Assembly (NCBI GenBank): GCA_048886185.1
Contig: JBHLKY010000015.1
Coordinates: forward strand, 60,001 to 92,000
Source of the DNA: Candidatus Hermodarchaeota archaeon
GTDB taxonomy: Archaea > Asgardarchaeota > Heimdallarchaeia > Hodarchaeales > Hodarchaeaceae
DNA: 32,000 nucleotides
Reading direction: 5' to 3'
The translations under genes and the position numbers were made by a program. The notes under the pieces were generated by a model, which did not search any database, was not told the origin of the DNA, and was given only the letters and a program-made list of their open reading frames with translations. This document shows, piece after piece, positions 7,016-32,000 of the stretch (position 1 is the first letter of the stretch; the number at the start of each line of letters is the position of its first letter).

Positions 7016-8302
7016 ATGTCGCCTGTAAATAAAATTATAGGTTCCTTAAAACAAGAAGAATTAGTTCAAATATATGCTGATTATGTATCGAAACATAAAG
7101 CGGCCTTTTTCGAGAGTCTCGGCCTTGGATTAATCCAAGGTGAAAGAAAAGGGATAAAAATAAAGATGTTGGAGGGAATTGAAGAAGGAGAATCTCCTTT
7201 GGAGCTGATTGATTGTCACACTAGTGGAGGAGTTTTTAATCTTGGACATCATCATCCAGCAATCAATAAAGCCCTCAACGAAGGTTTAGAGGCGGGTCTT
7301 GACATAGGGAATCATCATCTTCTTAGCGAACAGCGCGCTTTGCTAGCCAAACAGTTAGCTAATCTTCTTCCAGGAGATATTACTAAAACAATGTTCTCAG
7401 TTGGCGGAGGTGAGGCAATTGATTTAGCGATTAAACTCTCACGAGCTTTTACCAAAAGAAGAAAGGTTATTTCTGCAAATAGAGCTTATCATGGAGTCAC
7501 TGGGTTTTCTCTTGCTACTTGCGCGGCTAGTTTCAAAGATCCTTTTCTTTGGAATTTACCCGACTTTAAACAGGTTCCCTTTGCGGATATCATTAGTCTC
7601 AAAAAAATTATAGATGAAGAAACAGCCTGTATAATTTTTGAAACAATCCCTGCCACAGGAGGCATTCTTATCCCTCCAGAAGGGTACTTTGCAGAGGTTA
7701 GAGAGCTATGTGACGATTTGGGAACAGTACTAATTGCTGATGAAGTCCAAACTGGACTAGGACGAACAGGCCAAATGTGGGGGATTTATGGAGGATTGTA
7801 TCCAACTGAAAAAATCGTTCCTGATATGATCGTCCTAGCAAAAGGGATGAGTTCAGGTATCTATCCACTCTCAACTACCAGCTATAAACCTAAATTTGAA
7901 GAAGTTTTTGAAGATGACCCTTTTTTGCACATCTCCACGACTGGGGGTTCAGAATTAGGTTGTTATGTTACAAGAAAGATGTTAGACATAATATCTCAAC
8001 CTATCTTTCTGGAACAGGTGCAAAATAGAGGAAAACAATTTCGTAATGGGTTGACAGAACTTCAAGAGAAACATTCCAATAAAATTGTGGATGTACGAGG
8101 ACGTGGATTAATATGGGGCGTTGAATTTAAAGATGAATTTACATCATTACACTTCACTCTTACTATGATCAAAAATGGTGTTTGGTGTGATTATTGCGGT
8201 AATTATAAGGTCACCAACAAATTTTTACCACCATTAATCATTGGAACTAAGGATATAGATGAAGTTCTGAATCGGATAGAAGTTTCCTTGGAAGAAATCT
8301 GA
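7016..8302 (+). CDS. class III PLP-dependent aminotransferase (putrescine/ornithine-AT-like)
   Basis: LGHHHP, GGGEA, AYHG, DEVQTGLGRTG and the PLP-lysine motif LAKGMSSG. Confidence 0.92.
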   Translation: MSPVNKIIGSLKQEELVQIYADYVSKHKAAFFESLGLGLIQGERKGIKIKMLEGIEEGESPLELIDCHTSGGVFNLGHHHPAINKALNEGLEAGLDIGNHHLLSEQRALLAKQLANLLPGDITKTMFSVGGGEAIDLAIKLSRAFTKRRKVISANRAYHGVTGFSLATCAASFKDPFLWNLPDFKQVPFADIISLKKIIDEETACIIFETIPATGGILIPPEGYFAEVRELCDDLGTVLIADEVQTGLGRTGQMWGIYGGLYPTEKIVPDMIVLAKGMSSGIYPLSTTSYKPKFEEVFEDDPFLHISTTGGSELGCYVTRKMLDIISQPIFLEQVQNRGKQFRNGLTELQEKHSNKIVDVRGRGLIWGVEFKDEFTSLHFTLTMIKNGVWCDYCGNYKVTNKFLPPLIIGTKDIDEVLNRIEVSLEEI

Positions 8303-9002
8303 ATTAGAAGAAAAATGAAGACTAAAGGGAGATAGAACAATCAAATAAATAGAATAAAATAGTAATCTCAGTTATCTTTAGTTTTTGGCCGATCTACATA
8401 ATGTTTATGGAATGATTTTTTGTAAATAATTCTTGTATGAATCAGTTTCTGGAAAATTGGGCCTCTATGGACATTATGTATTATTTACTTCTTCTCAAAT
8501 TTCTATTATTCCACTCAATGTTGAAAATAGCACATTCCACGTTTGTATTAGTGCGATCAGTATTATTTTATGACTTAGATCTCGTCCTATTTGAGATTTT
8601 GAAAGCTTATGGTACTCTTTCCTGTCCTAAACTGTCCTCTTTACCAGTATTCCATTTAGCACAAATTTTTGATAGTTCTGCTTGATTCACTCTAAAAGTG
8701 TTAAATGCTTAATATCCAAAGAGGAAAAGCTCCATAATACACCACTTTAGCATTTTTAACACAGTAAAGTGATTTATCAAGTTAATTTTATATGGAGAAA
8801 AATCATATTAATTTGAACTATAGTAAACTTGCTCAAAAATGTTAACAAGTTTTATCCACACGATTCTAATCTGGTTAACACTCTTGTTGGTTTCATGTTT
8901 TACTTGGATGAACATTTCTAAAATAAATTATATATGATATTTGATTCATTCATTTTTTGTATTACCGATCTTAGAATGAAGTTAAAAAAAACCGACATAA
9001 CC

Positions 9003-9010
9003 TTTAAATA
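9003..9010 (+). promoter_or_regulatory. TATA-like box conserved in both copies of the inverted duplication
   Basis: TTTAAATA at 9003-9010 (+) and at 15357-15350 (-), in homologous context and 156-171 nt upstream of the shared CTGAATTCCCGATT core. Confidence 0.45.
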
Positions 9011-9125
9011 ATTGTAAATTTCAAGATAATGCACTCACACAAACAATTCTCAAATAAGATGAGGGATCTTAAATTCAATCCTCTTTCTGAAAAATAGCAT
9101 AAGAAAAATTCGAGATACCTTATGG

Positions 9126-9237
9126 TTAAACTCTATGAAGAGGGGTAGCGACCATAACATACCCCTCAACCCTAAATACACTGAATTCCCGATTATGGTC
9201 GCTTATTCTCTATAGGAACACCCTATTAGACTGAACC
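9126..9237 (+). ncRNA. candidate structured RNA/element, copy 1
   Basis: Perfect 11-bp stem AGCGACCATAA (9147-9157)/TTATGGTCGCT (9193-9203), a competing stem GAGGGGTA/TACCCCTC, an outer TCTATG/TATAGG stem, and covariation versus copy 2. Confidence 0.55.
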
Positions 9238-9275
9238 GTACCTTATTTAAACAGAATTTAGTGAATTTGTTAGAA

Positions 9276-17191: not shown

Positions 17192-18778
17192 ATGGGAATA
17201 ATCACTAAAATTCGATCGCAGCGGAAGAGGATTAACTGGTGGAGAGAGTATTCTCTTTCTCTAATAATTATTTTAGTGATGACTATCGCTTCTGGACTAG
17301 CATCTTCTCAGTATATTCTTATGAGCGATTGGTACTCTGTGGGTCCTTTTCTCGTAGGATCAGAAGAAGATACGTGTCCTCCCTTGGTCGAGGCAGCTTT
17401 TGTTCCTATCCACGTAGAAAGGACAGAAGGAACTTTCACAATTGATTTCACAGTAATTGATGATATAGATCCTGAACCAGATGTCACCGCAATTCTCCAA
17501 GTTTTTTTGCCAGAAGGCTGGCGAGATTGGGATACTATTGAACATGAGGATGGATCTAAGATCAAAATAGAAATCGATTATGATGATGAAGAAATAGAAA
17601 TAAAAGGTCCTAATTCAGAAAAAATCTTGAATGATCTCATAAATCTCGGGGGATTAGTAATAGATAATGGTCAGCTTCTGAAGATCGAGCTAAAAGATGA
17701 TAAAGTAGAGATAGAGCTAATAGAACCCCAAACAGGTAAAATAGAACTAGAAGATTTTGAAGGAGAGCCTATTTCAATGGTGAATAAATTACTTAAGGTT
17801 ACAGCTGTGGATGACGCTGGGAATTTAGGTATCGCTACTGCGACCCCATCTTTCGATGATGATAAGATAGACACATGTTCCTCACCGATAGAATTTATAG
17901 AAGAACAGATAGTCTTATTAGAAAATATAAAGAGTTCAGAAGCAGAAGAAGAAATTGAAACCGCTATAGAATATCTTAGCATGGCGATTGAAGCCTTCAA
18001 AATAGACCTCATAAGATGTGCAATGAATAAAATTAGACTTGCGGTCGAAAACTTGATAGATGCCCAAGATGAAGATGGGGCAGATACTCAAGAAGTAATA
18101 GATAATCTAATCAATTGGGTTCGATGTATAGTAGATCAAGCTATGAATACTGCTATTGATTTGCTAGGAGAGGAAAATTCACACATCATTGAAGCACAAG
18201 AAAAATGTGGAACTGCTTTCTTAAAAATAGACCAAGGAAAATACGATGAAGCAATCACGAAATTCAAGGAAGTATATACTGATCTTATGAAAGAATTGCA
18301 TAATTATATTTCTACCCTCAGCGTATCTACAACAGACACTTCTGCAACAATTACACTAAGATTATATAGAGTAGGTTTTGTGGTATGCTATTATGGTATT
18401 GGTACGCCAACATACTCAACTGAAGTTACATCATTATCTCGTAATCATGAAATCATTTTAACAGGACTCATTCCCGACTCTGAATATTCATACTATCTCG
18501 AAATTACTTTTGATCTTGAATTTCCTGATAACCCTGGGGGGAATACCGATCGATATCCATATGATTTAAGCTATCTAACCTTTACAACGACTGATGAGAT
18601 GAAAATCACAACTGAAGAACCAACCACTAAAGATGATTCTCTAGGACTTTCTTCTAGCTGGAGTATTTCTTCTGATTTGAGTGATAACACTCCAGGATTT
18701 GAAATAATTCTTATCATAGTGTGCCTGCTTTCAGGTGTTTTCTTATTTAAAAGAAGAAAAAAATCTAAGCAACCATGA
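17192..18778 (+). CDS. cell-surface protein with signal peptide, acidic Ig-like and helical regions, FN3-like domain and PGF-CTERM-like anchor
   Basis: N-terminal hydrophobic helix; VTAVDDAGN Ig-type motif; Ser/Thr-rich linker; ends TPGFEIILIIVCLLSGVFLFKRRKK. Confidence 0.8.
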   Translation: MGIITKIRSQRKRINWWREYSLSLIIILVMTIASGLASSQYILMSDWYSVGPFLVGSEEDTCPPLVEAAFVPIHVERTEGTFTIDFTVIDDIDPEPDVTAILQVFLPEGWRDWDTIEHEDGSKIKIEIDYDDEEIEIKGPNSEKILNDLINLGGLVIDNGQLLKIELKDDKVEIELIEPQTGKIELEDFEGEPISMVNKLLKVTAVDDAGNLGIATATPSFDDDKIDTCSSPIEFIEEQIVLLENIKSSEAEEEIETAIEYLSMAIEAFKIDLIRCAMNKIRLAVENLIDAQDEDGADTQEVIDNLINWVRCIVDQAMNTAIDLLGEENSHIIEAQEKCGTAFLKIDQGKYDEAITKFKEVYTDLMKELHNYISTLSVSTTDTSATITLRLYRVGFVVCYYGIGTPTYSTEVTSLSRNHEIILTGLIPDSEYSYYLEITFDLEFPDNPGGNTDRYPYDLSYLTFTTTDEMKITTEEPTTKDDSLGLSSSWSISSDLSDNTPGFEIILIIVCLLSGVFLFKRRKKSKQP

Positions 18779-18826: not shown

Positions 18827-19459
18827 GCTGGTCTAGGGCAAACTGGCCGAACATGGGGGATTTATAGAGGATTGTACTCAAATGAGAAAATCGTCCGCAA
18901 TATCGTCATACTAGCAAAAGGGATGAATTCAGGTATCTATCCCCTCTCAACTACCAGTTATTAACCAAAATTTACACAAATCTTTGAAGAAAACCCATTT
19001 TTACGTATCTCCAGCACAGAGTGATCTGAATTAGGTTTTTACTTAATAAGAAAGATGTTGAGTATTATTTCTCAACCTAAATTCCTGAAGCATGTCCAAG
19101 ATATGCGATCTGAGTTCAGTGGGGGATTATTGGAACTTCAAGAAAGTTATTCTGAGAAGATAGTAGATGTCAGAGGCCACGAACTGATGTGGGGGATTGA
19201 ATTTATAGATGAGTTCACCTCATTACATTTTACTTTAACAATGATTAAAAAGGGGGTGTGGTGTGATTATTACTGTTATCACAAGGTTACAAATAAATTT
19301 TTCCCACTGACTATTATTAGAACTACGGATATAGACGAGATCCTTAAAAGGACAGGAAAGTCCCTAAAGGAAATTAAAATAAATCATGAAATAAAAGAAA
19401 AATCGAATGTAATACAAATCTCTAGATTCTTATTGAATAACATTAAATACATCATGTAA
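18827..19459 (+). pseudogene. 5'-truncated, nonsense-disrupted copy of the class III aminotransferase
   Basis: One frame reads AGLGQTGRTWGIYRGLY...LAKGMNSGIYPLSTTSY*PKF...ISSTE*SELG...GVWCDYYCYHKVTNKF. It is collinear with 7751-8302 and has stops at 18962-18964 (TAA) and 19022-19024 (TGA). The track ORF 19055-19459 is only its distal part. Confidence 0.9.
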
Positions 19460-21940: not shown

Positions 21941-24900
21941 TCATGTATTTTTCTTTCGCTTTAATAACAATGTACTTGCCGTGAAAGACACTATTACAAC
22001 TACACTAAAAGCTCCAAGAAGAAGAATTGGATCAAAAATAACTTCTTCAACTATAACTTGAAATGACTCTTTTGCTGTTTCTACAACATTCCCAGCCCTA
22101 TCCTTAATCTCCAAGTACCAATAGTATGTACCATCTTCCAGTTCATCATGATTGAAAGTATGGCTACGGCTTTTAGTAATATCCAATGAACTCCAAGATG
22201 CTTCTCCTTGATCTTCATGACGATACCATAACAAGACTTTCTCTATTCCAGAAGCATCTTTAGGTTCCCAAACAACTATAGATATAGTATTGTTCATTCC
22301 TGCTGTTAACACCTCCTCAGTCTGGTTTATTTTAGAGTAACTTGGAGGATTAAAATCACGGACTGTAGAGGACATGGTTTTTGTCGTATCGTTATTCCCT
22401 GCAGTATCATTATACCAGAAATACCACACCCATACATGACCATAAACTAATAGTGAGGAGTCAATCCTAAAACTCTGGTTTTCAGTAACAAGAGCGTTTA
22501 GCCATTTAGATGATGTACTATTATCTTTATAATAGAAATATATTTCATCCACTCCACTAGCATCTGTTGGTTCAGCGATCACAATTGATATTGTAGCAGA
22601 TTTATCATATTCTAGGGGAGAAATATCCTGCTGCATAGATAGGAATGAAGGAGGGGTATTATCGGTTACAGTGAAAGTATAGATGATCGTTTGATTACTA
22701 TTCCCTGCAGTATCATTAAACCAGAAGTACCAATCATAAAAATCAGGATATATTAGTGCCTTATTATCAAATGTATAATTGGCAGTGTTTGAAACATCTA
22801 TTGGATCCAACCATAAATTATTATCATGATTATTATGCCGATAATACAATAATATAGTGTCAACTCCACTGGCATCTTCCGGTTCTATCAAATTAACAGA
22901 AACAGTGAAATCAGCATCGTATTCAGGGTGGCCTTCAGTTAAGTGCCCTGCAACAGGTGCTATAGTATCGATTACTGTAAATGACAAGATATCTGTGCTT
23001 CCATAATTCCCAGCAGTATCGTTGAACCAGAAAAACCAGTCATATACTTGGCTAAAAGTTAACATCGAAGCTTTGAAGGTATAATTCTGGATATAAGAGA
23101 CATCTATATGTTTCCATGCTTCATTGTTCACACGATAGTAAAGAAGAACTGTATCTACACCACTAGCATCCTCAGGTTCCGAAATATCGACAGAAACAGT
23201 ATTTGACTCACAATATTGGATTACTGTATCTTCTTGGAATGGATCTTCTGAACCTTGAGGTATTGTTGTATTTTGTTGAAATAGATCAGAAAAAGTTGGC
23301 GCAGTCGTATCGATTATAATAAACGATTGAGTGGCAGTTAGATTGCTATTACCAGCTGTATCATTAAACCAGAAATACCAGTCGTAATTTTGGTTATAGC
23401 TAAGCATGTCTGCTGTGAATATGTAACTGCTTGTGTCTGAAACATCAACAAAAATCCATGAACCATTATTATTTACCTGATAGTAAAGCAGAATAGTTTC
23501 TACTCCGCTGGCTTGATCAGACTCAATTACGTTAACTTCAACAATATTTGTTTCATCGTATTCAATATGGGTATTTGTTTGAGTGGGATTTGTATAAGTG
23601 GGAGAGGTCTTGTCTACTACACTGAAAGAATAAATTGCTGTTGTGTTTGAATTGCCAGCTAAATCATTAATCAGGAAGTACCACTTGTAAAATTGACCAT
23701 AGATAAACATATCGGATGTAAAAGTGTAATTCTTCATTGTAGTGACATCAACCATTAACCACGCTCCATTATCTACTTGATAGAAAAGTAGAATAGTGTC
23801 AATACCGCTAGAACCTTCAGGTTCATCTGGAATAATAAAAACAGTGTTAAACTCAGTATATTCTGGTAAAGAATTCGTCTGATTCACTTCAGAATAAAGA
23901 CGAGGTCCGATATCTGTTATAATAAAGAATAGAATAGGAGTCTGATGACTAAATCCAGAAGTTTCATTGATCCAATAATAACATTCCCAAATTTGTCCAT
24001 AAAACAGAAGATCTGAATAGAACATGAAATTATGACTTGTTGAGATATTTATACTAGTCCAGGTTTCATCATCTACCCTATAGTAAAGAAGACAAGTATC
24101 AATATTTGAAATATTTTCTACTCCAAAGAAGACAATATGATCAAGATCATAATTTACTTCAGCTGTTTCTTGATAAATCCAGATATTATTCTCGCTATAG
24201 TAATTGAACTGAAGGTACTCGTGATTTCCATCTGGATTACCTAATCCTGGTTTAATATTGAAAATAACTGATGAAATTGAATTGTACGAGGAATTTACTA
24301 GGTATATACTCGTACTATTTCCACCAGGTCCATTAGATGACGCATACCCCCCTTCTCCACCTATTCCACCAATAATATCAGAAACGATGTTGTTTTGAAT
24401 AATGTTATAAGTTGAATTCAAGAGATAAATGCCAATTCCTACACCACCAGAACCCCCAGAGGCTTGATATCCTCCTGTCCCACCTATTCCTCCCTTTATG
24501 TTCTTAATGGTATTATTTTTGATGATTATGTTTTCAGAATTTAAGAGAAAGATAGCAACACCTGATTCTCCAAGATAACCAGGAATAGTCGATGCTCCAG
24601 TGGCTCCAGCAGCTCCTTGATAGTTTGATATGATATTATTCATAACAGTGATGTTATGACAATTGATTAATACAATCTTTCCAAGATTGGTTGGATTACT
24701 TTGGGCAGTAAGAGTGTATCCTTCAATAACTGTATCTGCTTGACCGAAAAGGTAGATGATAAGGTTATAATCAAGACGGTTTGTTTGAAGGAGATTGTTA
24801 AAACTATTATTTTCGAGAAAAATGCCAAAAGCTGATCCTTTAGTCCCATTAACATTACCACGGCCACCTATAGCTTCCATTATATTGTTGATATTATTAT

Positions 24901-27900
24901 ATCGTAACAGATTTTCAGTGGAGTTAGAGAAATATATTCCTGCACCGATTCCGCCATTCCCTCCAGAGCCATAGGAGCTATCTGCAGTTCCCCCTATTCC
25001 CCCTATAATATCATTAATCCAATTACTATAAAAACGATTCTTAGTTGAATTAGACAGATATATCCCTGTTCCGATGCCACCATTCCCTCCCGAGCTATAG
25101 GAACCATTTGCGGCTCCCCCCATTCCACCAGTAATATCAGTAATCAAATTGAAAGAAAAGTAATTATCATGGGAGTTTGACAAAAATATTCCTGCACCGA
25201 TCCCATCATTCCCTCCCGAGCTATTAGTGTCGTTTGTTCCCTCTCCTATTCCCCCACTGATATCAGTGATTGAGTTGAAAGTGATATAATTATCGTCGGA
25301 ATAATACAAGTATATTCCTGTTCCAATATTACCAAGTGAATAAGGGTTTTTTATTAAATCTCCCGAATGTTCAATATTGTTAATTTGATTTTCTTGGATA
25401 ACATTATTAGTAGAATGACTTAATGTAATCCCATTGAAACTGATGTTGATAAAAGTATTCGAATAGAGATTATTATTCGAGGAATTTCTTAAATAAAGCC
25501 CAAAATAATTATTTTTGAAAGTATTATCTTTAATAAGGCAATTACTGGCATGATCAAGTATCAGAGGATAGTAATTATTTATGAAATAAGAATTAGTGAT
25601 CTGAACACCATCAGTATTGATCCATAAGCTTCCAAATTCACTAGAAGCATTTCCACAATAAGAAATAGAACTGCTGTTCATACGGAAAGAAGAACCATTT
25701 TTTACTTTTATTTGGTAGGAGTTGGTTGAATCTATGGAAGTAATGGATGACCCAGTTTCAATAGTAAGACTACCACCTTTGAAAATCTCAATACGGGATT
25801 GACTACTGGATATGTAAGTCATATAAACGGTAATGTTTCGAAGAGTTAGAGTTCCGTTTTTAAGGATAAGTAAATTCCCATTAAGGGTTAAAATATCATT
25901 CTCAAGAATTATCGTGTGATTTTCGATAATCCAATCACCCATGGATGGTAAATTGAAGTGTTTTACAACAGAGAGCCATACTGTATCTTTTGCTTGGTTA
26001 TTCTTTTGATCAAAAACTATCAATGTGTAGTTGTAATCGCCTATAGGAAGTTCAGTGATTTGAAGATCGATTGAAGATCCATTCCAAGGGCCTGAAAGAA
26101 TAACAGTTCCATTTTGATAGATGACATAAGAAGAGGGATAAACATCATTAGGAAGCCAACTAAGCTCCGTGTCAGTTACACCTTCAGAAATAGTCACATC
26201 AAAAGGATGATTAATGTTGGGAACTGTCAAATCTTCCACATAGAATGATTTAAATCCTACATAGTGGCTAGTATCGTCACTATTACCCGCTGTATCATTA
26301 TACCAGAAATACCAGTTATAAATCTGACCATAGGTAAGCATCTCCTCAGTAAAGGTGTAAGTGCTGGTCTCCGTGACATCCACGATTATCCAAGACATAA
26401 AGTTTATTCGATAATAGAGTAGGATAGTATCCACACCACTTGCGTCCTGCGGTTCAGTTATAGTTACTGATACGGTATTAGATTCATCATATTCTGGCTT
26501 GACACTAGTCTGTGTTAGATCAGAGAAACTTGGTACAGTGTTATCAATTACATTGAAAAACTGCTTTATGGACTGATCATTGTTACCTGCGGTGTCATTA
26601 AACCAAAAGTACCACTCATAACTTTGATTATATGCAAGATCTGCAAAAGTGTAACTGCTAGTAGTACTGCAGTCTACCTCTTCCCAAGAATCATTGTTGA
26701 TACGATAGTATAATAAAATCTTATCAACACCACTTGCGTCTGATTCTTCACTGACTACGATAGAAACAGTATTGATCTCATCATATTCAGGTGTATTTGC
26801 TACCTGATTTGGAGGTTCTATAATTTCAGGTACAAAATTATCAACTACTTCGAAAGAGAACTCATTACTGAAAGCTATATTACCAACAGTATCATTATAA
26901 CCAATCTTCCATTTGTAAACCTGACCATAGAATAACATTAGATCATTAAAGGTGAAAGATTGAGTAGTTGTAATTTCTACAATTGTAAATGTTTGCCAAT
27001 TATTTATTGTATAATTGATCCATACTGTATCGACACCACTAGCATCAAAGGATTCAGTCACTAAAATGGAAACAGAAGTAGAACCATTAAACTCGGGAGT
27101 GGAATCAGTTTGAACTGGTTTAATCTCGACATCTGGGGCATATGAATCTATAACTACAAAAGAAAATTCAGAGCTAATTGCATAATTTCCTATGGAGTCG
27201 TTATATCCAATAATCCATTGAAAGGTTTGACCAAACACCAACAATGATTCATTAAAGGTGTAGTATTGCGTTTTACTAATATTAGCTACTGTGAATGACT
27301 GCCAATTATTCGAAGTGTAATTAATCCATATAGTATCGATACCTGCGGCGTCAGAGGGTTCAGCCACAACAATAGAAGCAATTACAGTACCATTATAATC
27401 AGGTGTGGAGGTAGTTTGGCTAGGTGTTATACTAACATCAGGTGAATAACTATCGATAACAGTAAAGGTGAATTCATTACTGGTAGCAAAATTGCCTGCA
27501 GTGTCGTTATAGGCTATTATCCATCTATATATCTGGCCATATTCAAGATTTGTATCTGTAAAGATGAAAGTTTGAGTCTCTGTTATGTTAATCACTAGAA
27601 AATTGTTCCAGTTGTCAATTGTATAATTAATCCAGACAGTATCCACGCCACTTGCATCTCCAGGTTCAGACACAGTGATGGAAGCAATAACGGTACCGTT
27701 ATATTCAGGGGTAGTGGTGGTTTGAGCAGCTGGAGTGATTAAATCAGGAATATAAGAGTCGATGACTGAGAAGGAGTGTTCCTCACTCGAAGCGGTGTTT
27801 CCCACAGTGTCGTTATAAAGAATAACCCATTGATAGACTTGGTTATAGAATAATAATGAGTCTGTAAAGACAAATGTTTGTGTTTTTGTAATATTGACCA

Positions 27901-30900
27901 TTGTACTTGTGGCCCAATTGTCGGTCGAATACTTAATCCAGACAGTATCCACACCACTAGCATCTCCTGGTTCAGATACAGTGATAGAAGCAATAACGGT
28001 ACCGTTATATTCAGGGGAAGTGGTGGTTTGAGCAGCTGGAGTGATTAAATCAGGAATATAAGAGTCGATGACTGAGAAGGAGTGTTCCTCACTCGAAGCG
28101 GTGTTTCCTGCGGTGTCGTTGTAAAGAATAACCCATTGATAGACTTGGTTATAGAATAATAATGAGTCTGTAAAGACAAATGTTTGCGTTTCTGTAATAT
28201 TGACCGTTGTACTTGTGGCCCAATTGTCGGTCGAATAATTAATCCAGACAGTATCCACGCCACTTGCATCTCCAGGTTCAGACACAATGATGGATGCAAT
28301 AACGGAGCCGTTATATTCAGGAGTAATGGTGGTTTGAGCAGCAGAAGTGATTAAATCTGGACTATAGGAGTCAATGACTGAGAAGGAGAATTCCTCACTC
28401 GAATCGTTATTTCCTGCATTATCGATAAATACAATCTTCCATCGATACATTTCACCATATGATAAAATTTCATTTGAAAAAGTGTATGATTGAGTTGAGG
28501 TAATATTTTCAATCATAAAGGTTTCCCAGTTGTCTGTGGTATAGTTAATCCACACAGTATTCACACCACTTGCATCTAGTGGTTCTGTAACAAGGATTGA
28601 TGCAGTCACTGAACCATTAAATTCGGGAGTAGATGTTGTTTGACTAGCAGCATCTTCAACATTAGGTAGATAAGAATCAATAACAGTAAAGGATTCAATC
28701 GTTGTTTGATCACTATTTCCAGCTGTATCATTAAATTTAAAGTACCACATATATTTTTGACCAAAAGTTAGCATATCTGGGGTGAAAGTAAAGTTACTTG
28801 TACTAGTAACATCTATCTCTACCCAAGAACCAGTATTTACACGATAGCATAGCAAGATTGTGTCTACGCCACTGGCATTTCCAGGATCACTAACCATAAC
28901 GGAAACTGTGTTTGATCCGTTATATTCAGGAGTGGAACTAGTCTGAGTCAGATTAGTGTACTCCATGGAAGTATTATCAGTAACAGTGAACGTTAAGATT
29001 TCTGTCTCATCATTATTTCCTTCTGTATCATTAAACCAGAAACGCCAATCATAAATATCGCCATAATTGAGTATGGCTTCCGTAAAAGTAAAATTACTTG
29101 TCGATGTGACATCTATCTCGATCCACATACCACTATTAATCCGATATTTTAGTATAATTGTGTCCACTCCACTTGCATCTATTGGTTCAAATACATTCAC
29201 AGATACAGTATTCGATCCATTATATTCGGGAGTTTCTGTAGTTTGTTCTAACATAGAATAAATAGGGGCAGTATAATCATCAACATAAAATGAATAATTC
29301 GTTGTTTCGGCACTGTTTCCTTCTGTATCATTAAACCAGAATCGCCAATCATAAATATCGCCATAATTGAGCATTTCTTCAGTAAAAATGAAGTAGCTTG
29401 TTAAAGTGACATCAACTTCTGTCCATGACTCACTATTAAGACTATAAAATAATAAAACAGTATCCACTCCTGCAGCATCTGAAGGTTCATTCACAACTAT
29501 AGAAATAGTATTGGATCCATCATATTCAGGAGAAGCAGTCGTTTGTTGAGCAATTTCCTCGATATCAGGTGCATAGGAATCAATCACTGTGAATAAGAAT
29601 GCTTCACTAAAGGCTTTATTACCTGCAGTATCATTGTAACCAATAATCCAGTTATATGTTTGGTCAAACTTTAACATCTCCGCAGTAAAAATGAAAGTTT
29701 GGGTTGAAGTTATATTTACAACTGTAAAAGTAACCCAATTATCAAGTGTATAGTTAATCCATATAGAATCTATCCCACTAGCATTCCCTGGTTCTATAAC
29801 AGTAATAGAAGTAGTTACTGTACTATTGAATTCAGGAGTAGCAGTAGATTGAATTGCTGAACTAATTACATCAGGGGCATAGGAATCGATTACTTCAAAA
29901 GATAATTCTTTACTAAAAGCAGTATTCCCTGCAGAGTCGTTATAACCTATTACCCATTGATATTTTTGACCATATACTAATATAGCTTCATTAAATATGA
30001 AATCTTGAGTAAGAGATATATCAACTAACATGTAATTTAACCAATCATCTATTGTATAATTAATCCAGACAGTATCCACACCACTAGCGTCTCCAGGTTC
30101 AACTACTTGAATTGAGGCAATTACAGAGTTATTAAATTCAGGTCTTGAAGTATTTTGATTGGCTCTAATTAACACATCAGGAACATAAGTGTCTATCACA
30201 ACAAAAGTAAACTCACTACTTGAACCTGTATTGCCAATGGTATCATTGTAGCTTATTACCCAGGAATAAATTTGGGGGTATTCTAACATCTCTTCAGCAA
30301 ATGTGAACCTTTGAGTTGAGGTAATATTCACAATCGTGAAATTAATCCAATTATTAATGGTATAATTAATCCAAATGGTGTTTATTCCACAGGCATCTTC
30401 AGGTTCAGTTACCTGAATAGAAGCTGTAACAGTATCATTAAATTCTGGTGTTGAAGTAGTTTGAGATGCCTCAACTATCACATCAGGCGCATAAGAGTCG
30501 ATAACTATGAAAGAAAGTTCCTCGCTATAAGCTATATTTCCTGCAAAATCGGTATAACGCATTATCCACTGATATTTTTGATTAAAACGTAACATGTTTG
30601 AAGTAAAGATGAAAATCTGCAATGTAGTAATTTCAGCAACAGTGTAGCTAGACCAATTATCAGTAGTATAGTGGATCCAAAGCCTTTTAAAGCCACTCGC
30701 ATCCACCGGTTCATTTACATTAATTGAGGCTATCACACTAGCATTATATTGAGGATTGAAAGTTGTTTGACTAGCGGGGATTATCACATCAGGTGCAAAT
30801 GAATCAACCACTGTAAAAGAGAGTTCCTCACTATATCCGATATTGCCTAAACTATCGTTATATCCAATTATCCACCGATAAATCTGATTATATTCTAGCA

Positions 30901-32000
30901 TTGCAGCTGTGAAAATGAATGATTGGGTCTGATTAATATTCACAACAACAAAATTATTCCAATCATCTATTGTATAATTTATCCAAACTGTATCCATCCC
31001 ACTAGCATCAGAAGGTTCAGTTACTTGAATAGTTGCCTCTACAGTCCCATTATACTCTGGAGTAGAATCAGTTTGTGATGCCTTCACTATTACATCAGGT
31101 GCATAGGTGTCAATAACTGTAAAGGAAAACTTATTAGAATACCCCATATTACCTACAGTATCGTTATAGCCAATATACCATCGATAGGTTTGATTATATT
31201 TAAGTATAGCTTCAGTAAATATGAAAGACTGGGTTGTGGTTATATCCACAATTATAAAGGTTAACCAGTCGTTTATGGTGTAATTTATCCATACGGTATC
31301 TATACCACTAGCATTAATAGGCTCATAAACTTGAATAGATGCCTCTACAGTCCCATTATACTCTGGATTAGAATCAGTTTGTGATGCATCAATTATTACA
31401 TCAGGCGCATAAGTATCAATTACTGTAAAGGAAAGCTCATTAGAATACCCCGTATTACCTGCAGTATCGTTGTAGCCAATATACCATCTATAAATTTGAC
31501 TGTATTTAAGCATTGTTTCAGTGAAAGTGAAAGATTGAGTAAGGGTAATATTCTTCACTATATATGATACCCAATTATCTAATGTATAATTAATCCAAAT
31601 AAAATCTAAACCTGCTGCATCCCCTGGTTCTGTTACTGTAATGGAAGTGGTCACAGTTTCATTAAATTCAGGAATAAATGTGGATTGAGTGATAGGCACT
31701 TCAACATCAGGAATAAAACTATCAATAACATAAAAGAGAAATTCATCACTGAAACCAGTATTACCTACTGTATCATTGTACCCTAATATCCATTGATAGG
31801 TTTCTCCATATTCTATCATGTCTTCGGTAAATGTAAACATTTCTGTTAAGGTAATATCTATTATTATAAAGGAATCCCAAGAGTCTGTTGTGTAATTAAT
31901 CCAAATAGTATCCACACCACTGGCATCAGAAGATTCACTTACATCTATTGATACAACAACACTGCTATTAAATTCAGGATAAGCTGTTGATTGAGATGCC
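21941..32000 (-). CDS. giant (>3350 aa) cell-surface glycoprotein/adhesin with Ig-like repeats, a right-handed beta-helix and a C-terminal TM anchor; 5' end outside the window
   Basis: The frame stays open from 31915 to the window edge (ASQSTAYPEFNSSVVVSIDVSESSDASG), so the track start is internal. About 26 repeats with ND[TS]xGN; NosD/pectin-lyase-like I-x-L-x-x-S-x-x-N repeats at ~24230-25940; ends ILLLGAFSVVVIVSFTASTLLLKRKKNT. Confidence 0.9.
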   Translation of the reverse strand, partial: ASQSTAYPEFNSSVVVSIDVSESSDASGVDTIWINYTTDSWDSFIIIDITLTEMFTFTEDMIEYGETYQWILGYNDTVGNTGFSDEFLFYVIDSFIPDVEVPITQSTFIPEFNETVTTSITVTEPGDAAGLDFIWINYTLDNWVSYIVKNITLTQSFTFTETMLKYSQIYRWYIGYNDTAGNTGYSNELSFTVIDTYAPDVIIDASQTDSNPEYNGTVEASIQVYEPINASGIDTVWINYTINDWLTFIIVDITTTQSFIFTEAILKYNQTYRWYIGYNDTVGNMGYSNKFSFTVIDTYAPDVIVKASQTDSTPEYNGTVEATIQVTEPSDASGMDTVWINYTIDDWNNFVVVNINQTQSFIFTAAMLEYNQIYRWIIGYNDSLGNIGYSEELSFTVVDSFAPDVIIPASQTTFNPQYNASVIASINVNEPVDASGFKRLWIHYTTDNWSSYTVAEITTLQIFIFTSNMLRFNQKYQWIMRYTDFAGNIAYSEELSFIVIDSYAPDVIVEASQTTSTPEFNDTVTASIQVTEPEDACGINTIWINYTINNWINFTIVNITSTQRFTFAEEMLEYPQIYSWVISYNDTIGNTGSSSEFTFVVIDTYVPDVLIRANQNTSRPEFNNSVIASIQVVEPGDASGVDTVWINYTIDDWLNYMLVDISLTQDFIFNEAILVYGQKYQWVIGYNDSAGNTAFSKELSFEVIDSYAPDVISSAIQSTATPEFNSTVTTSITVIEPGNASGIDSIWINYTLDNWVTFTVVNITSTQTFIFTAEMLKFDQTYNWIIGYNDTAGNKAFSEAFLFTVIDSYAPDIEEIAQQTTASPEYDGSNTISIVVNEPSDAAGVDTVLLFYSLNSESWTEVDVTLTSYFIFTEEMLNYGDIYDWRFWFNDTEGNSAETTNYSFYVDDYTAPIYSMLEQTTETPEYNGSNTVSVNVFEPIDASGVDTIILKYRINSGMWIEIDVTSTSNFTFTEAILNYGDIYDWRFWFNDTEGNNDETEILTFTVTDNTSMEYTNLTQTSSTPEYNGSNTVSVMVSDPGNASGVDTILLCYRVNTGSWVEIDVTSTSNFTFTPDMLTFGQKYMWYFKFNDTAGNSDQTTIESFTVIDSYLPNVEDAASQTTSTPEFNGSVTASILVTEPLDASGVNTVWINYTTDNWETFMIENITSTQSYTFSNEILSYGEMYRWKIVFIDNAGNNDSSEEFSFSVIDSYSPDLITSAAQTTITPEYNGSVIASIIVSEPGDASGVDTVWINYSTDNWATSTTVNITETQTFVFTDSLLFYNQVYQWVILYNDTAGNTASSEEHSFSVIDSYIPDLITPAAQTTTSPEYNGTVIASITVSEPGDASGVDTVWIKYSTDNWATSTMVNITKTQTFVFTDSLLFYNQVYQWVILYNDTVGNTASSEEHSFSVIDSYIPDLITPAAQTTTTPEYNGTVIASITVSEPGDASGVDTVWINYTIDNWNNFLVINITETQTFIFTDTNLEYGQIYRWIIAYNDTAGNFATSNEFTFTVIDSYSPDVSITPSQTTSTPDYNGTVIASIVVAEPSDAAGIDTIWINYTSNNWQSFTVANISKTQYYTFNESLLVFGQTFQWIIGYNDSIGNYAISSEFSFVVIDSYAPDVEIKPVQTDSTPEFNGSTSVSILVTESFDASGVDTVWINYTINNWQTFTIVEITTTQSFTFNDLMLFYGQVYKWKIGYNDTVGNIAFSNEFSFEVVDNFVPEIIEPPNQVANTPEYDEINTVSIVVSEESDASGVDKILLYYRINNDSWEEVDCSTTSSYTFADLAYNQSYEWYFWFNDTAGNNDQSIKQFFNVIDNTVPSFSDLTQTSVKPEYDESNTVSVTITEPQDASGVDTILLYYRINFMSWIIVDVTETSTYTFTEEMLTYGQIYNWYFWYNDTAGNSDDTSHYVGFKSFYVEDLTVPNINHPFDVTISEGVTDTELSWLPNDVYPSSYVIYQNGTVILSGPWNGSSIDLQITELPIGDYNYTLIVFDQKNNQAKDTVWLSVVKHFNLPSMGDWIIENHTIILENDILTLNGNLLILKNGTLTLRNITVYMTYISSSQSRIEIFKGGSLTIETGSSITSIDSTNSYQIKVKNGSSFRMNSSSISYCGNASSEFGSLWINTDGVQITNSYFINNYYPLILDHASNCLIKDNTFKNNYFGLYLRNSSNNNLYSNTFINISFNGITLSHSTNNVIQENQINNIEHSGDLIKNPYSLGNIGTGIYLYYSDDNYITFNSITDISGGIGEGTNDTNSSGGNDGIGAGIFLSNSHDNYFSFNLITDITGGMGGAANGSYSSGGNGGIGTGIYLSNSTKNRFYSNWINDIIGGIGGTADSSYGSGGNGGIGAGIYFSNSTENLLRYNNINNIMEAIGGRGNVNGTKGSAFGIFLENNSFNNLLQTNRLDYNLIIYLFGQADTVIEGYTLTAQSNPTNLGKIVLINCHNITVMNNIISNYQGAAGATGASTIPGYLGESGVAIFLLNSENIIIKNNTIKNIKGGIGGTGGYQASGGSGGVGIGIYLLNSTYNIIQNNIVSDIIGGIGGEGGYASSNGPGGNSTSIYLVNSSYNSISSVIFNIKPGLGNPDGNHEYLQFNYYSENNIWIYQETAEVNYDLDHIVFFGVENISNIDTCLLYYRVDDETWTSINISTSHNFMFYSDLLFYGQIWECYYWINETSGFSHQTPILFFIITDIGPRLYSEVNQTNSLPEYTEFNTVFIIPDEPEGSSGIDTILLFYQVDNGAWLMVDVTTMKNYTFTSDMFIYGQFYKWYFLINDLAGNSNTTAIYSFSVVDKTSPTYTNPTQTNTHIEYDETNIVEVNVIESDQASGVETILLYYQVNNNGSWIFVDVSDTSSYIFTADMLSYNQNYDWYFWFNDTAGNSNLTATQSFIIIDTTAPTFSDLFQQNTTIPQGSEDPFQEDTVIQYCESNTVSVDISEPEDASGVDTVLLYYRVNNEAWKHIDVSYIQNYTFKASMLTFSQVYDWFFWFNDTAGNYGSTDILSFTVIDTIAPVAGHLTEGHPEYDADFTVSVNLIEPEDASGVDTILLYYRHNNHDNNLWLDPIDVSNTANYTFDNKALIYPDFYDWYFWFNDTAGNSNQTIIYTFTVTDNTPPSFLSMQQDISPLEYDKSATISIVIAEPTDASGVDEIYFYYKDNSTSSKWLNALVTENQSFRIDSSLLVYGHVWVWYFWYNDTAGNNDTTKTMSSTVRDFNPPSYSKINQTEEVLTAGMNNTISIVVWEPKDASGIEKVLLWYRHEDQGEASWSSLDITKSRSHTFNHDELEDGTYYWYLEIKDRAGNVVETAKESFQVIVEEVIFDPILLLGAFSVVVIVSFTASTLLLKRKKNT
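26240..32000 (-). repeat. tandem ~300-306-nt repeats, 19 units visible in this array
   Basis: Identical anchors recur at 27631, 27937 and 28243 (306 nt), at 31039 and 31345 (306 nt), and at 29021 and 29321 (300 nt). Confidence 0.92.

What the first reader, a model, noticed from the sequence alone, without database searches (positions are those of the whole stretch)
9126..9237. Structured ~115-nt element with a compensatory base-pair change and a pseudoknot/switch-like topology
Seen: the 11-bp stem is perfect in both copies, with A9151-T9199 replaced by G-C (15225/15176). The stem's 5' arm lies in the loop of a second stem (GAGGGGTA/TACCCCTC), so the two are either pseudoknotted or mutually exclusive. 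G-T to G-C changes (e.g. T9211) favour an RNA read + here and - in copy 2. CTGAATTCCCGATT in the loop region is invariant. I recognise no Rfam family. Inference: an undescribed ncRNA, ribozyme or mobile-element end. One covarying pair is suggestive only, and a DNA palindrome bound by a dimer would covary too.
Basis: partly seen in the sequence, partly recalled or inferred. Interest (0 to 1): 0.8.

Follow-up and report, generated by a model that had tools for sequence, protein, structure and literature searches.

The report
Clade-specific structured small RNA candidate
A roughly 120-base non-coding element found twice beside a secreted protease gene in a Hodarchaeales (Asgard) archaeon keeps three base-paired stems through compensating mutations in five known copies, so it is probably an undescribed small regulatory RNA, most likely read from the strand opposite to the one first proposed.

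Summary
The two inverted copies (9118-9245 and 15130-15258) are real, and they are the only two in this 4.8 Mb genome. Three more copies exist: two congeneric genomes and one metagenome contig.

Across the five copies, three helices stay paired (94-96% of cells), and 5-6 pairs are changed on both sides. No Rfam family matches. The element was not found in 80 other Heimdallarchaeia genomes or in IMG/VR.

- **Topology.** Hairpin A and stem B abut with no linker and have near-equal energies. They are alternatives rather than a classical pseudoknot.
- **Strand.** An extended 12-bp helix (9205-9236) pairs in 60 of 60 cells on the opposite strand, 11 of them G.U. On the proposed strand it pairs in only 83% of cells.
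- **Promoter.** A rare BRE/TATA-like box (9341-9326, minus strand) points the same way.
- **Second element.** The invariant CTGAATTCCCGATT also sits in a second element, F2 (16164-16361). There it forms a hairpin about 50 nt into a predicted leader of a conserved secreted-protein operon.

Best reading (about 0.4): a small RNA whose loop pairs with that leader. No expression data exist.

Rivals: a sense-strand RNA switch, a TrmB-type operator region, and a recombination site.

The scan had already noted F2 and the inverted duplication on this same window, not on other DNA.

The parts
9118..9245 (-). F1 copy 1, the conserved structured core.
   Evidence: CM hits of 150 and 143 bits. Alignment A8/A10. 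Pair counts.
9140..9167 (.). Hairpin A: GAGGGGTA (9140-9147) pairs with TACCCCTC (9160-9167). The 12-nt loop is the 5' arm of stem B.
   Evidence: 8 pairs, 97.5% (sense) and 95% (antisense) of cells paired. Two pairs are changed on both sides: G-C/U-A/U.G and A-U/U-A.
9147..9203 (.). Stem B: 9147-9157 pairs with 9193-9203, with a 35-nt loop.
   Evidence: Pair 9151/9199 is A-U, G-C or A.C. Pair 9155/9195 is U-A, G-C or A-U. State energy is within 1 kcal/mol of the hairpin-A state in 3 of 5 copies.
9181..9194 (.). Motif M, CTGAATTCCCGATT. It lies in the loop of stem B next to its 3' arm.
   Evidence: Invariant in all 5 F1 and all 4 F2 copies. Other exact sites in the genomes searched look unrelated, mostly inside long open frames.
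9205..9236 (-). Helix P3x: 12 pairs in three blocks with two bulges.
   Evidence: On the minus strand 60 of 60 cells pair, 11 of them G.U, and 2 pairs are changed on both sides. On the plus strand 83% pair.
9326..9341 (-). BRE/TATA-like box GGAAAAAAATATAAAC pointing at the core. The predicted start is near 9302.
   Evidence: The strict pattern occurs 16 times in 4.8 Mb on both strands. It resembles boxes upstream of this genome's tRNA genes. It is conserved in copy 2 and G010. The start site is an inference.
9090..9108 (-). Two T5 runs on the minus strand (9108-9104 and 9094-9090), candidate terminators.
   Evidence: Read from the sequence. On this strand the 50 nt beyond hairpin A hold a T run in every copy: T5 to T8 in three, only T4 in G010 and G019. 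Inference only.
15130..15258 (+). F1 copy 2, an inverted paralogue 200 nt beyond the subtilase stop codon.
   Evidence: CM hits of 147 and 135 bits. 82% identical to copy 1.
15039..15054 (+). Copy 2 counterpart of the BRE/TATA-like box (AGAAAGAAACATAAAC).
   Evidence: A T6 run (about 15110-15115) lies between it and the core, which argues against read-through.
16126..16139 (+). BRE/TATA-like box of F2 (GAAAGACTTATAAG).
   Evidence: Its TATA part ends 24-25 nt before GTTTA[G/A]AAAC in all four lineages.
16164..16361 (+). F2: boxes GTTTAGAAAC, M palindrome CTGAATTCCCGATTCAG (16214-16230), GxGAGAxxCA and GTTTTTAAACAT, upstream of the 206-aa and 528-aa secreted-protein genes.
   Evidence: Alignments. 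The only consensus structure is the M hairpin. Downstream genes are conserved in the other lineages.
9787..14922 (+). S8 subtilase with CARDB, PKD and DUF4350 domains, enclosed by the two F1 copies. Its likely true start is TTG 9841.
   Evidence: Pfam E = 4.5e-63. N-terminal signal anchor. Orthologues at 64% identity or more lie within 6 kb of F1 in all four lineages.
8434..8772 (+). Pseudogene remnant: the C-terminal half of a TrmB-like winged-helix regulator, with stops.
   Evidence: tblastn 44-49% identity to residues 110-220 of the intact G010 and L067 proteins.

Best explanation
F1 is the gene of a lineage-specific structured small RNA, or of a structured segment of a longer transcript.

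**Anatomy on that strand**
- A 5' interrupted hairpin of 12 pairs (P3x).
- A 10-11 bp stem (B), whose large loop displays the invariant AAUCGGGAAUUCAG.
- A 3' hairpin (A) that uses the 3' arm of stem B as its loop.

Stem B and hairpin A therefore cannot both form fully.

**Proposed mechanism (inferred)**
- The displayed loop pairs over 15-19 nt with the invariant hairpin CUGAAUUCCCGAUUCAG.
- That hairpin lies about 50 nt into the predicted leader (F2) of a co-occurring operon of secreted proteins.
- The pairing would link that operon to the protease locus.
- The A/B alternative would set whether the RNA is in its stem-B form.

**Status of each step**
- Shown: conservation, covariation and complementarity.
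- Inferred: transcription, strand and target.
For: **1. Base pairing is selected**
- 22 core pairs are 94.5% paired, 5 of them changed on both sides. Covariation is 0.236 against 0.100 for shuffles (0 of 500). Slid controls give 40-45%.
- With P3x added, the opposite strand gives 30 pairs at 96.0% and 6 pairs changed on both sides.

**2. The linker and loops vary freely, while the stems and M do not**.

**3. Strand**

**4. Promoter**
- A BRE/TATA-like box, rare in this genome (16 sites), points at the core from the opposite strand. It resembles boxes upstream of the tRNA genes.
- The 60-70 nt between box and core are about 85% conserved with G010.

**5. F2 looks transcribed**
- Its TATA box ends 24-25 nt before the same conserved box in all four lineages.

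**6. Complementarity**
- The F1 opposite strand and the F2 leader form 15-19 bp duplexes of -26 to -31 kcal/mol. The M hairpin alone is -5.3.

**7. Co-occurrence**
- F1 and F2 are present together in the same four lineages, and neither was found in any other genome searched.

**8. Copy number and position**
- It is low-copy and tied to one locus, so it does not behave as a repeat family.
Against: - **No expression data of any kind.**
- **Helices A and B give no strand signal.** There are 3 sense-only G.U cells against 2 antisense-only.
- **T runs upstream of P3x.** On the opposite strand, copy 2 has a T6 run and G019 a T9 run just before P3x. These could stop transcription from the distal promoter.
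- **The metagenome copy has no clear promoter.**
- **Pairing with the same genome's own F2 is not consistently stronger than with another lineage's F2**. There is therefore no firm covariation in trans.
- **A shared protein could explain M equally well.** M is identical, not merely complementary, in F1 and F2.
- **Small sample.** There are five sequences from about three to four independent lineages, and one internal A.C or C.A mismatch occurs on either strand.
Confidence: 0.4

Rival explanations
1. A plus-strand RNA (for copy 1) acts in cis as a two-state switch or pseudoknot in a long leader of the subtilase gene.
For: - Copy 1 and the G010 copy lie upstream of the subtilase gene and point the same way.
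- A conserved TATA-like CCTTTAAATAA lies about 120 nt upstream in copy 1, copy 2 and G010.
- A T5-T6 run lies about 45 nt after the core in 4 of 5 copies.
- The hairpin-A and stem-B states are near-isoenergetic.
- Hairpin A pairs slightly better on this strand (97.5% against 95%).
Against: - In 3 of 5 copies no co-oriented gene follows.
- The core lies about 600-700 nt before the subtilase start. A T5 run and a closer TATA box (9749-9756) lie in between.
- P3x has 10 unpaired cells on this strand.
- The pairing GGGG with CUCU, which this strand favours, shows no compensation. Changes at 9140 and 9141 are compensated in hairpin A instead.
Confidence: 0.15
2. F1 and F2 are regulatory DNA, not RNA. 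M is the operator of the neighbouring TrmB-like winged-helix regulator, which would control the protease and the secreted-protein operon. On this reading the other inverted repeats are further protein sites or cruciform-prone DNA.
For: - In F2, M is a perfect 6-N5-6 palindrome. That is the architecture of the Thermococcales TGM site bound by TrmB-family proteins (from my own knowledge, not tested here).
- An orthologous TrmB-like gene (67% identity between lineages) adjoins F1 in G010, adjoins F2 in the metagenome lineage, and is a pseudogene next to F1 here.
- Apart from M, F2 consists of short conserved boxes in variable spacers with no consensus fold.
Against: - Compensating changes in three inverted repeats are not expected for sites bound by protein dimers.
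- The G.U against A.C asymmetry of P3x points to a single strand.
- The 5-nt spacer of M is invariant, which is unusual for a 6-N5-6 operator.
- M lies 136-146 nt upstream of the nearest conserved TATA box on the gene side, far for an archaeal activator.
- The regulator is a pseudogene in this genome, yet M is intact in all three sites.
- The TrmB family is large and present in all 22 genomes of the genus, so adjacency is weak evidence.
Confidence: 0.2
3. The shared 15-18 bp identical cores are crossover sites for site-specific inversion of the subtilase gene and of the 1-kb segment between copy 2 and F2, giving phase variation of surface proteins. Alternatively, F1 is the decayed end of a mobile element.
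For: - Sites lie in inverted orientation at 9181(+)/15194(-) and 15194(-)/16214(+), and at 3052(+)/6004(-) in the metagenome contig.
- The enclosed genes encode surface or secreted proteins.
- The whole block sits between direct copies of the aminotransferase 3' half (D12 and D13).
- The position and orientation of F1 relative to the subtilase gene differ between lineages.
Against: - No recombinase or transposase domain was found in any neighbour scanned.
- The sites are in direct orientation in G019 and 600 kb apart in G010.
- No strand-changing joints appeared in the contigs of four runs, a weak test.
- Crossover at M would separate the two arms of stem B, yet those arms covary.
- There are only 2 copies per genome and no target-site duplication.
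Confidence: 0.07

Closest known systems
Loop-displayed antisense RNA regulators (for example CopA/CopT of plasmid R1, RNAI/RNAII of ColE1) and archaeal trans-acting small RNAs such as Methanosarcina sRNA162 (named from my own knowledge)
   Same: - A structured RNA of about 100-200 nt.
- It displays a conserved sequence in a hairpin loop, perfectly complementary to a hairpin in another transcript's leader.
- The predicted duplex is 15-19 bp.
   Different: - No expression or binding data.
- Regulator and target lie 1 kb to 600 kb apart rather than overlapping.
- The regulator has an alternative 3' hairpin that competes with the displaying stem.
- It is restricted to four Hodarchaeales lineages.
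Riboswitches and attenuators with mutually exclusive helices
   Same: Two covariation-supported helices share adjacent nucleotides and have similar energies.
   Different: - It is not consistently in a 5' leader.
- No ligand-pocket signature and no Rfam match.
- No U run directly after either hairpin in most copies.
TGM operator (TATCAC-N5-GTGATA) of TrmB-family regulators in Thermococcales (from my own knowledge)
   Same: The 6-N5-6 palindrome architecture of M in F2, and TrmB-like genes next door.
   Different: - A different sequence.
- An invariant spacer.
- In F1 the second half-site is degenerate and embedded in a covarying stem.
- Binding is untested.
Invertible DNA switches (fimS, Bacteroides capsule promoters, shufflons)
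   Same: Short identical inverted repeats enclose surface-protein genes.
   Different: No recombinase nearby, no evidence of both orientations, and direct orientation in one lineage.

Membership tests
Any Rfam 15 family | A covariance-model score at or above the family's gathering score | tested here: not met
   No match in the whole window at gathering score. At E<=10 nothing overlaps 9118-9245 on either strand.
Structured functional RNA (generic) | Helices kept through compensatory changes beyond what shuffles and slid controls give | tested here: met
   94.5-96% paired, 5-6 pairs changed on both sides, 0 of 500 shuffles reach the covariation score. Only five sequences, so power is low.
Structured functional RNA (generic) | Transcription of the element | not testable with these tools
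   No RNA run is listed as holding the stretch.
H-type pseudoknot | Loop lengths that let both helices form at once | tested here: not met
   There are 0 nt between the 5' arms of A and B (or, on the other strand, between the 3' arms) and 2 nt on the other side, for helices of 8 and 10 bp (alignment A8). This is judged from geometry only; partial stems could still coexist.
Cis-acting riboswitch or leader | Lies in the 5' leader of a co-oriented gene in all members | tested here: not met
On the opposite strand none does.
Trans- or antisense-acting small RNA | Its own promoter and terminator signals | tested here: inconclusive
   A rare BRE/TATA-like box lies at 9341-9326, with T5 runs at 9108-9090. 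T6 and T9 runs precede the core in copy 2 and G019.
Trans- or antisense-acting small RNA | Conserved complementarity to a target transcript | tested here: met
   14 invariant nt, with 15-19 bp per lineage, match the M hairpin of F2. Whether F2 is transcribed is inferred from TATA spacing.
MITE or IS end | Many copies, terminal inverted repeats with target-site duplication, a related transposase | tested here: not met
   There are 2 copies in this genome and 1 in each of G010 and G019. The flanking GTTNAAC-like words belong to the conserved element. No transposase domain was found.
Invertible DNA switch | Inverted repeats plus a recombinase, with both orientations present in a population | tested here: inconclusive
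   Inverted repeats are present. No recombinase was found. No strand-changing joints were seen, but only contigs could be laid.
TrmB-family operator | A palindromic 6-N5-6 site bound by the regulator | not testable with these tools
   The architecture is present in F2. Genome-wide palindrome counts gave nothing usable. Binding is untested.
C/D box small RNA | Conserved C (RUGAUGA) and D (CUGA) boxes flanking guide sequences | tested here: not met
   ATGAAGA at 9135 is absent in G019 and in the metagenome copy. The 3' CTGA is not conserved.
tRNA gene fragment (att-site relic) | M matches the anticodon arm of a tRNA gene in the genome | tested here: not met
   ARAGORN, with and without the intron option, finds no tRNA containing the motif and no tRNA-Gly(CCC).

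The most novel reading that the evidence does not exclude
F1 is a bistable riboregulator of a new class in the archaeal order closest to eukaryotes. An unknown signal, a ligand or a protein that recognises the invariant loop, would flip it between the stem-B and hairpin-A states. The flip would gate its pairing with the F2 leader and so coordinate secretion of a giant protease with a surface-protein operon.
Probability: 0.1. Interest if true: 0.75.

Novelty: new member of a known kind. Interest (0 to 1): 0.45.

Why it matters
My two searches of the paper library found no report of a small RNA or RNA regulator in Asgard archaea. Hodarchaeales are also the archaea usually placed nearest to eukaryotes.

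A covariation-supported RNA family with a candidate target gives a concrete, testable entry point into post-transcriptional control in this group. The genes involved bear on their peptide-degrading lifestyle: a 1,700-residue secreted subtilase and a conserved secreted-protein operon.

The family is narrow (four lineages) and its function is inferred, so the immediate reach is modest.

Tried and rejected
- **Rfam**, at gathering score and at E<=10: nothing.
- **tRNA and tmRNA scan:** none in the window.
- **tRNA-fragment idea.** M looks like an anticodon stem-loop with anticodon CCC, but no such tRNA exists in the genome.
- **More homologues, by covariance model.** Models R1 and R2 over the family, order and class found only G010 and G019.
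- **More homologues, by pattern scan.** One hit in genome contigs (G010 = CP070695.1), one metagenome contig, none in IMG/VR.
- **More homologues, by neighbouring genes.** Contigs around aminotransferase and subtilase homologues held no further copy. The 85-aa neighbour has no homologue.
- **The 14-mer and 17-mer across the class and phylum.** The extra hits are coding or unrelated.
- **RNA evidence:** no RNA holder is listed.
- **Read laying on four DNA runs.**
  - Relatives of the element appear in contigs of three runs from two further sediment studies.
  - No inversion joints were seen.
  - Only contigs could be laid, and cover over copy 2 was poor.
- **A closing stem P1** (GGTTAAAC with CTGAACC) and **the extension GGGG with CUCU** are not supported outside the closest copies.
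- **Coding potential:** the small ORFs in the core are not conserved.
- **Genome-wide CTGAAT-N5-ATTCAG counts** gave nothing usable. By my own rough calculation from base composition, about 20 sites per genome are expected against 28-34 observed, and the tool's control was oddly depleted.
- **Full-length duplexfold energies** were meaningless and were replaced by local duplexes.
- **Trans covariation at positions -1 and -2 of M** is suggestive only.
- **Literature:** no paper holds the motif in a relevant context.

Full report
**What is there**

The window comes from a Hodarchaeales (Heimdallarchaeia) metagenome-assembled genome. Its nearest complete relative with the element is CP070695.1, 'Candidatus Heimdallarchaeota archaeon bin6'. 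Neighbouring proteins are labelled Hodarchaeales or Hodarchaeota in public records.

The element is real at the stated coordinates. Arms 9125-9267 and 15108-15251 form an inverted repeat.

- The 11-bp stem is perfect in both copies.
- A9151-T9199 becomes G-C at 15225/15176.
- GAGGGGTA pairs with TACCCCTC around the stem's 5' arm.
- The 14-mer CTGAATTCCCGATT is invariant.

Homology is longer than reported, about 9000-9380 against 15357-15000. The two copies enclose a single gene, an S8 subtilase with CARDB, PKD and DUF4350 domains (9787/9841-14922). Both copies fold better than shuffles (z = -3.9 and -4.3). Rfam gives nothing.

**Distribution**

- These are the only two copies in the 4.8 Mb genome.
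- Of 22 genomes of the genus, only G010 and G019 also carry it, one copy each. No genome among 83 of the class carries it outside this genus.
- A pattern scan added one metagenome contig, Ga0209536_100000212 (75 bits). IMG/VR gave nothing.
- Contigs of three sediment runs from two other studies hold close relatives, but their letters could not be retrieved.
- Contigs around more distant aminotransferase or subtilase homologues lack it.

This is a low-copy, locus-bound element, not a repeat family.

**Covariation**

In the five-sequence alignment three helices hold:

| Helix | Window coordinates |
|---|---|
| Hairpin A | 9140-9147 with 9160-9167 |
| Stem B | 9148-9157 with 9193-9202 |
| Small hairpin | 9213-9216 with 9222-9225 |

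- 94.5% of cells pair.
- Five pairs change on both sides. Examples are 9155/9195 as U-A, G-C or A-U, and 9140/9167 as G-C, U-A or U.G.
- No shuffle reaches the covariation score, and sliding the partners drops pairing to 40-45%.
- The linker between hairpin A and the 14-mer, and the hairpin loops, vary freely.

One covarying pair in two copies has become five to six pairs in five copies. With three to four independent lineages this is good but not conclusive support.

**Switch or pseudoknot**

The 5' arms of A and B abut with no linker, and only two nucleotides separate B's 5' arm from A's 3' arm. Full simultaneous formation is therefore sterically implausible (inference).

The two states differ by no more than 1 kcal/mol in three copies. 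Stem B is favoured in copy 2 and hairpin A in G010. A rival pairing of GGGG with CUCU, preferred by single-sequence folds, is not compensated when 9140 and 9141 change; hairpin A is.

**Strand**

I counted the same 30 pairs on both strands.

- RNAalifold on the opposite strand finds an extended 12-pair helix, P3x (9205-9236). It explains the conserved TCTC and TAGATTGAAC words.
- On the opposite strand P3x pairs in 60 of 60 cells, 11 of them G.U. Two pairs are changed on both sides.
- Helices A and B are neutral: three sense-only G.U cells against two antisense-only.

A BRE/TATA-like box, GGAAAAAAATATAAAC (9341-9326, minus strand), points at the core. The strict pattern occurs only 16 times in the genome. 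It resembles the boxes upstream of this genome's tRNA genes. It lies in the 'extension' that is conserved in copy 2 and G010.

Against this, a T6 run in copy 2 and a T9 run in G019 precede P3x on that strand. I put the opposite strand at about two to one, given that the element is an RNA at all.

**A second element with the same motif**

The exact 14-mer recurs at 16214. It also occurs once more in each of G010, G019 and the metagenome contig.

These sites define F2 (16164-16361), a set of conserved boxes in variable spacers:

1. GTTTA[G/A]AAAC
2. the perfect palindrome CTGAATTCCCGATTCAG
3. GxGAGAxxCA
4. GTTTTTAAACAT

Only the palindrome forms a consensus hairpin.

A BRE/TATA-like box ends 24-25 nt before the first box in all four lineages. 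This predicts an RNA that starts at GUUUAGAAAC and carries the hairpin about 50 nt in.

F2 precedes a conserved operon of secreted proteins. The 206-aa and 528-aa products here match the 189-aa and 287-aa products of the metagenome lineage. The 528-aa product also matches a 292-aa protein in G019 and a truncated 143-aa ORF in G010.

Other exact 14-mer hits and one-mismatch 17-mer hits elsewhere in the phylum are coding or unrelated.

**Neighbourhood**

In all four lineages F1 lies within 6 kb of a subtilase orthologue of 64% identity or more, and close to a TrmB-like winged-helix gene.

| Lineage | TrmB-like orthologue |
|---|---|
| G010 | intact, directly beside F1 |
| Metagenome lineage | intact, beside F2 |
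| This genome | reduced to a pseudogene (8434-8772) |

The orientation of F1 relative to its neighbours differs between lineages. That suits an independent unit better than a leader.

**Mechanism**

An RNA read from the opposite strand of F1 would carry AAUCGGGAAUUCAG in the loop of stem B. This sequence is complementary to the F2 hairpin over 15-19 bp (-26 to -31 kcal/mol, against -5.3 for the hairpin alone).

This explains several things at once:

- why a 14-mer is frozen in two otherwise unrelated elements;
- why the two always co-occur;
- why F1 has a covarying scaffold while F2 does not.

The match extends one or two bases beyond the 14-mer in a lineage-specific way. However, pairing with the same genome's own F2 is not consistently the strongest, so covariation in trans is only a hint.

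I therefore commit, at about 0.4, to a loop-displaying small RNA that targets the F2 leader, with the A/B alternative modulating it. The looser claim that F1 is a functional structured RNA, whatever its strand or target, I put at about 0.7.

**Rivals**

- **Sense-strand cis switch (0.15).** It fails on position in three of five copies and on P3x.
- **TrmB-type operator DNA (0.2).** It fits the 6-N5-6 palindrome and the neighbouring regulator. It does not explain compensated stems, the strand asymmetry or the invariant spacer. It could still coexist with an RNA role.
- **Inversion sites or a mobile-element end (0.07).** There is no recombinase, the sites are in direct orientation in G019, and no joints were seen. 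A crossover at M would also split stem B.

**Verdict**

The strand call is probably wrong, and the ribozyme and mobile-end readings find no support.

It is a new family of a known kind, a lineage-specific archaeal small RNA. It is of moderate interest mainly because of the organism and the testable RNA-target pair.

Noticed in passing
window 16164-16361 (+); L036, L030 555-760, L032 5870-6065 (-): Second conserved non-coding element, F2, upstream of a secreted-protein operon. It shares the invariant motif as a perfect 17-nt palindrome. A TATA box ends 24-25 nt before its first conserved box in four lineages.
   Followed up: yes
window 7752-8298 and 18828-19374: Direct copies (72-78% identical) of the aminotransferase 3' half bracket an 11-kb block. 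The block holds F1, the subtilase gene, F1', F2 and the secreted-protein genes. Relatives such as L068 have the aminotransferase directly followed by the homologue of the 495-aa gene. This suggests an old insertion or integration into the gene's 3' end.
   Followed up: partly
window 8434-8772 (+): Remnant of a TrmB-like regulator: the C-terminal half only, with in-frame stops. The orthologue is intact in G010, L067 and the metagenome lineage.
   Followed up: yes
window 9519-9602 (-); L029 about 9340-9440: A 24-27 aa micro-ORF (ME[T/K][L/I]LR[S/G]FADLF...KFNPT) on the strand opposite to the subtilase gene is conserved between this genome and G010. G010 has a second, broken copy upstream of F1.
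   Followed up: no
window 9787-9843: The subtilase ORF as listed starts at TTG 9787. The signal anchor (MKKRHIRQISILLLGFF) begins at TTG 9841, with a TATA-like box at 9749-9756, so the real start is probably 9841.
   Followed up: partly
window 16449-18778 (+): The 206-aa and 528-aa secreted proteins form a conserved pair. The N-terminal 230 residues or so of the 528-aa protein are 47-54% identical to 287-292 aa proteins in the other lineages. The small partner evolves fast (19-32% identity). No Pfam family matches.
   Followed up: partly
contig listed (gene list only, no DNA) and L073: In two relatives the orthologous subtilase gene lies beside a cdc6/orc1 gene. In one of them a gene with Metallophos and DNA_pol_E_B domains also lies there, which I read as the PolD small subunit. 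That places it near a probable replication origin. No cdc6 gene is in this window.
   Followed up: no
window 21941-31999 (-): Giant repeat protein of more than 3,300 aa built from units of about 300-306 nt (families D1-D11).
   Followed up: no
whole genome G000: ARAGORN finds 11 tRNAs without the intron option and 32 predictions with it. A few of those (tRNA-Pyl, tRNA-Trp) look spurious. Many tRNA genes therefore seem to carry introns.
   Followed up: no
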